Part shown: piece by piece, positions 58,306 through 61,300 of the stretch
How the letters are laid out: each line of letters starts with the position of its first letter
Numbering within the stretch: the first letter of the stretch is position 1
Assembly (NCBI GenBank): GCA_002633005.1
Contig: NMRA01000061.1
Location: forward strand, 993,400 to 1,057,399
DNA from: Phoronis australis
Lineage: Eukaryota; Animalia; Phoronida
Length of the DNA: 64,000 nucleotides
Reading direction: 5' to 3'
Made by a program: the position numbers and the translations under genes
Notes under the pieces: generated by a model
What the model saw: the letters and a program-made list of their open reading frames with translations, nothing else
Databases searched by the model: none
Told to the model about the DNA's origin: nothing

Positions 58306-61300
58306 TTAATACCAGCCAGCGTCCAGACTGTCCTTGACTGTGTCACGGTTCTCTCGCCGCGACCTCGTCACCAAGGCCGCCTCACCACTCTTGCGTATCC
58401 GCCGTGCCTGCTGCTTTTTCCGCTCCCGTTGAACCTTGCTACGAACCCTGGCCCGAATGGCCTCCTGGGATACTGACAGTGTTGACATGCCTGTCGTGGC
58501 CGCACTACAACTACTGTCGTTCCTTGTCCTACGAAGTGCACTCTCGTCTCTGAATGGCCTGTATTCACTATTACGTGCACTCAAATCTTCAACATCTGAA
58601 TCGTCAGATTCACACGCACCACGCACATCTCTATCATTAGGAGTACTGTCTTCATTACTCATACTGTTAGTACTTGGATCTTCAGCCGCAACTCTATTCA
58701 GGGAGTTTGTGCAGTTTTCATCCACTAGTAGTTCACTCTGTTTAGTGTCATTATTATCCGCAGCTCCCTCTTCGGGAAAATCTGCGCACTCCTCACTTTC
58801 ACTCTCATTGCCACTGCTGTTAGCCAGAACACTTCCCAATTCCTCCACTGCCTGTAAGTGACCAACATTACGGTTAAGTGTCCTCAAATCAGAACGCATT
58901 ATGGCAGAACAATGAAATTTTATTTCATCAAAATTCTCAAAAAGAACTAGACAAATTCACGTCATTGTTTGAAAACTTTATACAGCACAGCTTTCACTAG
59001 CAAACGCAATGAAATTTTGAACATTGTGGAAATACAATGAGCATTTAAAAAATGAAAAAACAGCAATTTGGCCGTTATTTTTCTTCGAATTTGAGAAAGC
59101 TTTATCATATCTTTACACATTGAAGGTACTGGAAACAAAGAGGACTTGTCACTTAATTTGCTTGATAATCCACTTAAATTTTACATTTCTGCTAGGATTC
59201 CACACTTAAAAATGTGTCTCCATGATAGCAAGTAACAGCATATGTTCACGAAAACAACAACGGATTTAAAACTTGACATGTTTCGGTGTCATTTATTAAA
59301 CACCATCCTCAGAAGTCATAATACAATGGCCACCTAGCTAGGCCCAGCAACAAGTAATGAAGCACAGATACAGTCAGTTACAGGGAGTGACAATGAACTA
59401 TACCAACAATGACAACCTGTGGTGTGTCAGTTGCCTATTGAGATTGGGCTTGCACCAACTGATATGTAAAGCCTCACGAATTTTAAGCTCCTTTGTTGTT
59501 ACTGCCTGGTCTATTATTGCAAAGTCATTGAAAGAGCACTGCTGATAACAATGATTGGAGCTCTGCAGGTGAATATTTACATGTGAATTACTGTCAGAAT
59601 TTAGATGTTCCTTGGTCCTGGTTTTCAAATGGCGAACAAAGGAGCTTAAAATTCGTGAGGCTTTACATATCAGTTGGTGCAAGCCCAATCTCAATAGGCA
59701 ACTGACACACCACAGGTTGTCATTGTTGGTATAGTTCATTGTCACTCCCTGTAACTGACTGTATCTGTGCTTCATTACTTGTTGCTGGGCCTAGCTAGGT
59801 GGCCATTGTATTATGACTTCTGAGGATGGTGTTTAATAAATGACACCGAAACATGTCAAGTTTTAAATCCGTTGTTGTTTTAAAAATGTGTAATTTTCAA
59901 TATTTTACATTTTTTTTCTGGAGAATGCTTAAGAATTTGTAAAGATATGGCAAAGTTGTCAACAATTGACTAAATGCCTGACACATTTATTTGCTCATGC
60001 TTTCACTCTCCATTGACCATCTAAGGGTACACACACACTGACTGGTACAGTATAACACGTGCAGTGCTGTAGTGGGGCGTAGGCGCACATAGGCGCAGCC
60101 AACCACCTTTTGGCATTCGAACGTAGTGCCTACACACCGAAAGTTACGTCCAGTGCTCAAGGTGTCTACTTACCTCTAATTTTACCTATACAGCACTGAA
60201 CACGTGATTAGTTGTACCAAGAGAATTTATCAAAGGGGAGACTTGCCGGAAACAAAGAGGGGTGATCACACGGCATCTATGATTGGCATAATTTACTTAA
60301 ATCTTACCTCGAGCAGGGACTGGTCCATATCTTTTGTAAAACCACTGGCAGCAATCTCAACATCTAAATTTGTCGTTTTCCTGGCAAAGGAAGTGTAAAC
60401 AATCGTGGTTACTACTGCGTGATACAAACTGAATTCAGTTTCCACTGCATTCAGAGAGCAGCACCACGTTACAGGTGCACTATTAGAACCACATGACTGA
60501 GCAGACGTGCCTAAAGACCAACAGCATTGAAACGAACCCTGCTGAGACATTTCAATCACAAAACATTCGTTGCAGTGGAAGTTTGTTGTAACTAAATCAA
60601 GTTGTATATAGTGCTGTTGGCTTTGAGAACACAATAATAAGCAAGCATCCTTTAAAACCTTTGTTTACTGCAATACTGTTAAGATTGTGTTAAAAATGTG
60701 TTCCTCATTGTGAAACATTGGAGTAAAACCAAAGAGCACTTCTTGTAAACAGCATGCGAGTGAAGCTTCACTTGTCGAAACAAAAAGGTAAATATTGATG
60801 TGTTATACCCCAATACAAGCCTGAACAGTGAATACCTATCGGATAATAATCACTACAGTTATTTCTCATGAGTGACGGCAATTTGGTGGGAAATGATGAC
60901 GAGCACGTTGCAATATTCAACCAAAGATGCCCACATATAAGCAGTTTGATTCACTACGCTACATAGGGATGACTGACGTCAAGTACACCGAAAGTTGAAT
61001 ATTTTTATTTTTGTTACGCAATGTTTTTTAGATTTTATTGCTTAACATGCTGGATAAATAGATTACTATATGTCCTTGACAGTTATTTCTTGTATTCACT
61101 TCCCAAACAGGGTCTAGATACTAACAAGGACATCTTATAATCAACGTTTGTGTGCAAAGGGGAGAGTCGTCTAATCTTAGGAGTACACCTTAGGCACATA
61201 TGATCATGCACTTGGCAAAAATGGTTTGTTGAAAAAACGTATTACAGCTGTGGAGACAAGTGACTAAATTTTTGAGAAATTGCAAATGTAGTAAATCAAA

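What the first reader, a model, noticed from the sequence alone, without database searches (positions are those of the whole stretch)
59270..59862. Twin, oppositely oriented hammerhead ribozymes inside a RIOK2 intron
Seen: two identical 48-nt motifs (59270-59317 on -, 59815-59862 on +) with full hammerhead cores CUGAGGA and GAAA, stem II GGUGU/ACACC, stem I ACUU/AAGU and a GUC site. Established: Penelope-like elements carry minimal type I hammerheads in their pLTRs; their very short, palindromic stem III (here ACAUGU) is thought to favour dimeric folding. Inference: a transcript from either strand contains one sense ribozyme and its exact antisense. In the RIOK2 pre-mRNA the antisense arm is made first, so it could sequester the ribozyme. 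That built-in off switch might let a self-cleaving motif be tolerated in an essential ribosome-biogenesis gene, or make cleavage conditional.
Basis: partly seen in the sequence, partly recalled or inferred. Interest (0 to 1): 0.8.

Follow-up and report, generated by a model that had tools for sequence, protein, structure and literature searches.

The report
Young Penelope fold-back in RIOK2 intron
The two mirror-image ribozyme motifs are the ends of two broken-off copies of a very common Penelope-type jumping gene that landed head to head in a RIOK2 intron, likely recently and likely not in every chromosome copy, so the predicted hairpin that buries the ribozyme is likely an ordinary insertion by-product rather than an off switch for the gene.

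Summary
In detail: two identical 48-nt minimal type I hammerhead motifs on opposite strands in the last RIOK2 intron. They are parts of a perfect 247-nt inverted repeat. The insertion is a 417-nt 5'-truncated Penelope-like element (end of the GIY-YIG endonuclease, 3' UTR, hammerhead, 33-nt tail) joined head to head to a 247-nt inverted copy, between 12-nt direct repeats at an AT-rich site. The family is highly repeated. Contigs of one DNA sample break at both ends with the geometry expected of an insertion-free allele, so the insertion is likely young and unfixed. Inverted truncated copies with a one-sided tail, and paired minimal hammerheads 100-700 bp apart on opposite strands, are both published. 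Folding agrees that the antisense arm would bury the motif (about 80 kcal/mol), but that lock is constitutive rather than conditional, holds for either strand, and is probably redundant: each transcript has one sense motif, and related monomers did not cleave in published tests. This scan has reported the same layout in other genomes. Ordinary; low interest.

The parts
58852..60307 (-). Last intron of RIOK2 (1456 nt with the insertion, 782 nt without), GT...AG, phase 0
   Evidence: tblastn exon map and splice-site display; lengths
60308..60380 (-). RIOK2 exon upstream of the intron
58309..58851 (-). RIOK2 last coding exon
   Evidence: RNA depth about 2-10 with first mates on + only in X7 and X8
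59206..59217 (.). Left copy of the 12-nt direct repeat (target-site duplication, inferred; 10 nt plus 2 nt shared with the element end)
   Evidence: X1 flank contig fits to 59217 and then carries 18 unlike letters
59218..59250 (-). 33-nt one-sided tail of the Penelope-like element
   Evidence: high repeat depth in the bin 59176-59233 and loose ends at 59217/59219 and 59245/59250
59218..59634 (-). Longer 5'-truncated Penelope-like copy (417 nt with tail), sense to RIOK2
59270..59317 (-). Minimal type I hammerhead motif, sense in RIOK2 pre-mRNA; predicted cut after 59275
59401..59634 (-). Last 78 codons of the GIY-YIG endonuclease, truncated just after the YIG motif; stop at 59400-59398
59498..59634 (.). 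137-nt unpaired spacer (the part of the longer copy that the shorter one lacks)
59635..59881 (+). Shorter, inverted 5'-truncated copy (247 nt, no tail), identical to 59497-59251
59815..59862 (+). Second hammerhead motif, antisense in RIOK2 pre-mRNA; predicted cut after 59857 on a + transcript
59880..59891 (.). Right copy of the 12-nt direct repeat
   Evidence: X3 contig fits from 59880 after 18 unlike letters

Best explanation
This is one likely recent insertion of an endonuclease-positive Penelope-like retroelement, two 5'-truncated copies of its 3' end joined head to head in a RIOK2 intron, and its hammerhead is predicted to stay permanently paired and silent in the host pre-mRNA. Shown: endonuclease C-terminus, 3' UTR with hammerhead, one-sided 33-nt tail, perfect inversion, 12-nt flanking repeats, high copy number. 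Inferred mechanism: the GIY-YIG endonuclease nicked both strands of an AT-rich site 10-12 nt apart; each nick primed reverse transcription on an uncleaved element RNA, one at the tail end and one 33 nt inward; the two short cDNAs (417 and 247 nt) were joined at their far ends, probably through a 4-nt microhomology. Because both 3' ends point outward, any transcript meets the antisense arm first and folds into a 247-bp hairpin with a 137-nt loop that is spliced out with the intron. No function for RIOK2 is needed.
For: Protein: the minus-strand frame 59634-59401 has 767 relatives at E up to 0.001; of 10 relatives chosen from the 150 listed for length or rank, 3 carry RVT_1 with the match to our fragment at their C-terminus, 6 match Pfam GIY-YIG (E up to 0.002; 1 of 6 above the curated cut-off) and 1 matches nothing. 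tblastn of 3 RT-bearing relatives finds the end of the domain on both strands and nothing else in the window. Repeat: in DNA run X1 summed depth is 35.7 on the flank and 28,000-146,000 over the element, 11,378 in the bin holding the tail; two classes of ends at 59217-59219 and 59245-59250; 6 of 15 listed joints change strand at other breakpoints. One event: A at 59326 is G in all 301 RNA reads of X7 and X8 that cover it and in 80,120 of 80,216 summed depth in X1, yet both arms carry it. Unfixed: X1's left-flank contig fits to 59217 then has 18 unlike letters, X3's right-flank contig has 18 unlike letters then fits from 59880; 18 = 30 minus 12 is what a 31-mer graph gives for an empty allele beside a filled one. 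Both ends lie downstream of the predicted cut (24 and 57 nt), so the template was uncleaved. Literature: inverted 5'-truncated copy and 30-40 bp one-sided tail (PMC8557442); dual minimal hammerheads 100-700 bp apart on opposite strands (PMC4209133); both-strand nicking, two internal start sites bounding the tail, uncleaved RNA as substrate (PMC11167929).
Against: No read or contig was seen to span the whole insertion or the empty site, and the 18 unlike letters were not printed, so the empty allele rests on geometry and on an assumed word length of 31. The 12-mer occurs a third time at 60690, so it is less rare than composition suggests. The 4-nt microhomology is read from one diverged RNA variant (23 reads, X7). 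No RT sequence of this family was recovered; a word-based search for longer relatives found none among 6 candidates. No cleavage was measured; silence is a folding prediction plus published behaviour of other minimal hammerheads.
Confidence: 0.9

Rival explanations
1. The antisense arm is a retained off switch that makes an otherwise harmful intronic ribozyme tolerable or conditional in RIOK2.
For: Antisense arm comes first and is predicted to bury the motif completely; without it stem II forms (probability 0.95 just after emergence) and the hammerhead fold costs only 2.9 kcal/mol. Fast intronic ribozymes can block splicing, and an antisense oligo raises Cpeb3 output (PMC10919898, passages).
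Against: Geometry is generic to the class and strand-symmetric; insertion looks unfixed; no partner motif in cis for a dimer (2 hits, one per strand); monomers of this class inactive in published tests; slow hammerheads in introns did not block splicing (PMC2995048, passages citing others); about 80 kcal/mol leaves no switchable state.
Confidence: 0.03
2. The perfect inversion is partly an assembly artefact: a real Penelope fragment whose second arm was copied or homogenised by the assembler.
For: The window has near-perfect tandem duplicates beside single-N gaps at 12240, 22559 and 28183; no contig spans the element; such structures are known to trouble short-read assemblies.
Against: Nearest N is 14 kb away; the arms end at the family's two natural end classes with a flanking direct repeat; both arms carry a rare variant rather than the family's common base; contig breaks at both junctions imply that both junctions exist in the reads.
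Confidence: 0.05
3. It is a MITE-like or fold-back DNA element with 247-nt terminal inverted repeats that moves as a unit.
For: Long perfect terminal inverted repeats and a direct flanking repeat.
Against: The arms encode a retroelement endonuclease end and its hammerhead; the tail makes the ends unequal; other copies invert at other breakpoints; the diagnostic variant of this copy is held by about 96 of 80,216 summed depth, a few copies at most.
Confidence: 0.02

Closest known systems
Insertion units of C-terminal EN+ Penelope-like elements, Penelope/Poseidon clade (PMC8557442, passages seen; PMC11167929, parts 1-2 of 4 read)
   Same: 5' truncation, adjacent inverted 5'-truncated copy giving inverted repeats around the unit, 30-40 bp tail at one end only, hammerhead in the pLTR, AT-rich target, C-terminal GIY-YIG.
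   Different: Very short: no RT and no tandem pLTR are left; the family itself was not matched to a named Repbase family.
Minimal hammerheads (min-HHR) of metazoan Penelope-like elements (PMC4209133, parts 1-2 of 4 read)
   Same: [quoted passage not shown] The variant with a small palindromic helix III is described for Drosophila, rotifers, shrimps and mosquitoes.
   Different: Stem II here is 6 bp (7-8 in Schistosoma families); activity of this sequence is untested.
Functional intronic ribozymes such as the Cpeb3 HDV-like ribozyme (PMC10919898, passages seen)
   Same: Self-cleaving motif in an intron, sense to the host pre-mRNA.
   Different: Cpeb3 is fixed, conserved and measurably active as a monomer; this motif is high-copy mobile DNA, looks unfixed, needs a partner and is predicted to be paired.
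Non-LTR retrozymes (bioRxiv 10.64898/2026.07.22.740005, part 1 of 5 read)
   Same: Type I hammerhead of Penelope origin.
   Different: Retrozymes are head-to-tail tandem arrays able to form dimers in cis; this is head to head and keeps endonuclease coding sequence.

Membership tests
EN+ Penelope-like element | C-terminal GIY-YIG endonuclease with conserved R, H, E, N residues | tested here: met
   Fragment aligns at 46-53% identity to 12 relatives with R6, H10, H18, E54, N66 invariant; relatives match Pfam GIY-YIG. The fragment alone has no Pfam match.
EN+ Penelope-like element | Telomerase-related RT upstream of the endonuclease in one ORF | tested here: inconclusive
   Lost from this copy by truncation; present in 3 of 10 relatives scanned, each with our fragment's match at the C-terminus. 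Not shown for this family itself.
EN+ Penelope-like element | Hammerhead motif in the pLTR / 3' end | tested here: met
   Motif begins 81 nt after the stop codon.
EN+ Penelope-like element | Inverted 5'-truncated copy at the 5' end and 30-40 bp tail at one end | tested here: met
   247-nt inverted copy; 33-nt tail, two end classes in the family.
EN+ Penelope-like element | Dispersed repeat with target-site duplication at an AT-rich site | tested here: met
   Depth 800- to 4,000-fold above flank in X1, a sum that is not a copy number; 12-nt direct repeats.
Penelope/Poseidon clade | [quoted passage not shown] | tested here: inconclusive
   Region lost from this copy. Among 150 relatives, 44 matched the core-cysteine pattern, 23 of them had 60 residues upstream, and 0 of 23 had the linker finger. 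Points to Penelope/Poseidon; no RT tree was built.
Minimal type I hammerhead (min-HHR) | Intact core C3-U4-G5-A6-N7-G8-A9, G12-A13-A14, NUH site, stems I and II, palindromic helix III region | tested here: met
Minimal type I hammerhead (min-HHR) | Self-cleavage (as dimer or with protein) | not testable with these tools
   Double-hammerhead fold is -21.0 kcal/mol against a two-strand minimum of -24.8 and -19.8 for two free monomers: allowed, not favoured, not shown.
Domesticated regulatory intronic ribozyme | Fixed in the species and conserved at the orthologous site | tested here: not met
   Contig geometry in 2 runs of one sample points to an insertion-free allele; indirect. Other species' RIOK2 introns were not examined.
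Non-LTR retrozyme | Head-to-tail tandem units each with a hammerhead | tested here: not met
   One motif per strand in the window; no direct repeat of it.

The most novel reading that the evidence does not exclude
Head-to-head insertion passively disarms Penelope ends in any transcript, since the antisense arm always comes first, and selection therefore lets fold-back copies persist in introns of essential genes while purging solo or tandem sense copies. This segregating RIOK2 allele would be one data point of a genome-wide filter on ribozyme-bearing insertions.
Probability: 0.1. Interest if true: 0.45.

Novelty: new member of a known kind. Interest (0 to 1): 0.1.

Why it matters
As a locus it matters little: a young dead scrap of a common retroelement. 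Its use is as a clean example of Penelope integration (tail, inversion, target duplication and a shared private variant in one 674-nt event) that fits the two-start-site model from in vitro work, and as a likely polymorphic intronic 247-bp hairpin whose effect on RIOK2 splicing, editing or small-RNA production could be read from allele-specific RNA in a heterozygote.

Tried and rejected
No whole genome is held for this window, so copies could not be counted or aligned directly. Rfam: no hammerhead family at E up to 1 in 56000-64000. Pfam on the 78-aa fragment: no family. Word-based search for longer relatives: 0 of 6 candidates passed. Sequencing runs: no RNA holder listed, no evidence either way. 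RNA ends at the predicted cut: no pile of starts or ends in X7 or X8; fragmented libraries dominated by other copies, so uninformative. Splice joints: none listed for X9 or X6 at depth 0-2, so splicing across the element was not observed. RNA over the element (both strands, depth 30-150) comes from other loci: the adjacent intron bin has depth 0 and the copy-specific base is absent from all 301 covering reads. C59284T was first taken for a stem II covariation; by position it is G12A in the core, so it was dropped as support. The tblastn extension to 59670 runs into the antisense arm and was treated as chance. One search forced a non-canonical seventh pair in stem II; forced energies are taken from the corrected. 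Paper searches: RIOK2 + hammerhead gave 0 papers; Penelope + inverted repeat + hairpin + siRNA + truncated gave 6, none on this point by listing. Supplements (for example the cleavage gels of PMC4209133) were not read.

Full report
Observation. Each has stem I (4 bp plus G-U), CUGAGGA, one extra U, a 6-bp stem II, GAAA, the palindrome ACAUGU and a GUC site. A descriptor scan gave 2 hits in the window and 0 in 60 simulated windows. Rfam has no matching model at E up to 1. The motifs sit inside a 247-nt perfect inverted repeat, 59251-59497 and 59635-59881, with a 137-nt spacer. The host gene is RIOK2 on the minus strand; the element lies in its last intron, 60307-58852, placed by homology and splice-site sequence.

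What it is. Read on the minus strand, 59634-59401 is an open frame of 78 codons with 767 relatives. Of 10 relatives scanned, 3 are RT proteins that end in this domain, 6 match GIY-YIG weakly to moderately and 1 matches nothing; catalytic-type R, H, E and N positions are invariant in a 13-sequence alignment. So 59634 to 59251 is the end of a Penelope-like ORF, its stop, an 81-nt stretch and the hammerhead. The + strand from 59635 is a shorter copy of the same 3' end. Left of the left arm lie 33 more bases (59250-59218) and then a 12-mer that recurs at 59880-59891. The layout is therefore: direct repeat, tail, longer truncated copy, inverted shorter copy, direct repeat. Absence of a linker zinc finger in 0 of 23 informative relatives points to the Penelope/Poseidon clade, without a tree.

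Reads. In DNA run X1 the flank has depth 35.7 and the element 28,000-146,000, with the tail included; loose ends fall in two classes, at 59217-59219 and 59245-59250, and 6 of 15 listed joints switch strand at other breakpoints. Position 59326 differs from the family in all 301 covering RNA reads and in 80,120 of 80,216 summed DNA depth, and both arms share it: the arms come from one template or one was copied from the other. The left-flank contig of X1 fits up to 59217 and carries 18 further unlike letters; a right-flank contig of X3, the same sample, starts with 18 unlike letters and fits from 59880. With 31-letter words and a 12-nt duplication, an empty allele next to a filled one gives exactly 18. 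This is indirect: no lay covered both flanks at once, the letters were not printed, X2 showed no contig at this junction, and the 12-mer also occurs at 60690. I read it as a likely heterozygous, unfixed insertion.

How it most likely arose and behaves. PMC11167929 (parts 1-2 of 4) shows that a Poseidon protein nicks and extends both strands of AT-rich DNA, starts reverse transcription at two internal sites whose spacing is the tail, uses uncleaved RNA, and that its hammerhead cleaves only with the protein. Inference: two nicks 10-12 nt apart primed two cDNAs, one from each start site, which were joined head to head; a diverged RNA variant (23 reads) suggests that the 4 bases after 59634 belong to both copies, a microhomology. 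Both ends lie 24 and 57 nt beyond the predicted cut, so the template was uncleaved. In RIOK2 pre-mRNA the antisense arm is made first and the hairpin is predicted to zip as the second arm emerges; forcing the hammerhead costs 73-82 kcal/mol, and the figure is the same for a + strand transcript. Without the antisense arm the cost is 2.9 kcal/mol just after emergence and 8.2 once the tail is made, and helix III still needs a second molecule.

The masking is a sound prediction; the switch is not. The geometry follows from the insertion mechanism, is described as frequent with a 30-40 bp one-sided tail (PMC8557442, passages), and dual minimal hammerheads 100-700 bp apart on opposite strands are reported in PMC4209133 (parts 1-2 of 4), where a single motif showed no detectable cleavage and dimers only low activity. 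Slow hammerheads placed in introns did not block splicing according to passages of PMC2995048 and PMC10919898 that cite earlier work. Against complacency: fast intronic ribozymes do block splicing (same passages), and a preprint abstract reports that tandem retrozymes are excluded from introns, which keeps a selective-filter reading open at low odds.

Novelty. A new instance of a known structure. One search for RIOK2 with hammerhead found no paper. Earlier notes of this scan hold 15 findings with these words in at least 11 genomes, 8 shown, all read the same way, one in a RIOK2 intron of another genome; a search by sequence found no look-alike. These notes agree with, but add no independent support to, a reading recorded before I saw them. 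The organism was not determined.

Verdict. Real feature, ordinary explanation (0.9). Interest 0.1.

Noticed in passing
window 59218-59634 against run X5 (organism B): A run under another organism label holds the element (6 differences in 316 letters, depth 4.5) but none of the RIOK2 flank; its copy has G12A in the hammerhead core. Trace DNA of organism A, a close relative or horizontal transfer cannot be told apart.
   Followed up: partly
window 59279-59220 (-): An ATG inside the palindromic helix III opens a 20-codon hydrophobic frame through the tail, possibly the start of the next tandem unit's ORF; in the anole element the ORF also starts inside the hammerhead.
   Followed up: partly
window 59284: Core change G12A at a CpG in 18 of 385 RNA reads of X7 and X8 and none in X1; loop II insertion at 59297 in 26 of 291 reads.
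   Followed up: no
window 59297-59292 (-): Loop II of the sense hammerhead holds an AATAAA hexamer, which the hairpin would also mask.
   Followed up: no
window 60060-60117: A second high-copy repeat end in the same intron (summed depth about 20,000-26,000 in X2 and X3).
   Followed up: no
window 58886-59117: Low-copy repeat remnant in the same intron (depth 80-230 against 36 in X1).
   Followed up: no
window 60683-60757: Runs X2 and X3 show a different haplotype here, with a loose end behind 60738.
   Followed up: no
window 11777-12933, 21557-23530, 27777-28590: Near-perfect tandem duplicates each beside a single N, likely unmerged contig or haplotype overlaps.
   Followed up: partly
window 47926-48257, 52927-53088, 38652-38775, 30911-30965, 42209-42247: Imperfect palindromes of MITE-like appearance, with no hammerhead hit.
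   Followed up: no
   Followed up: no
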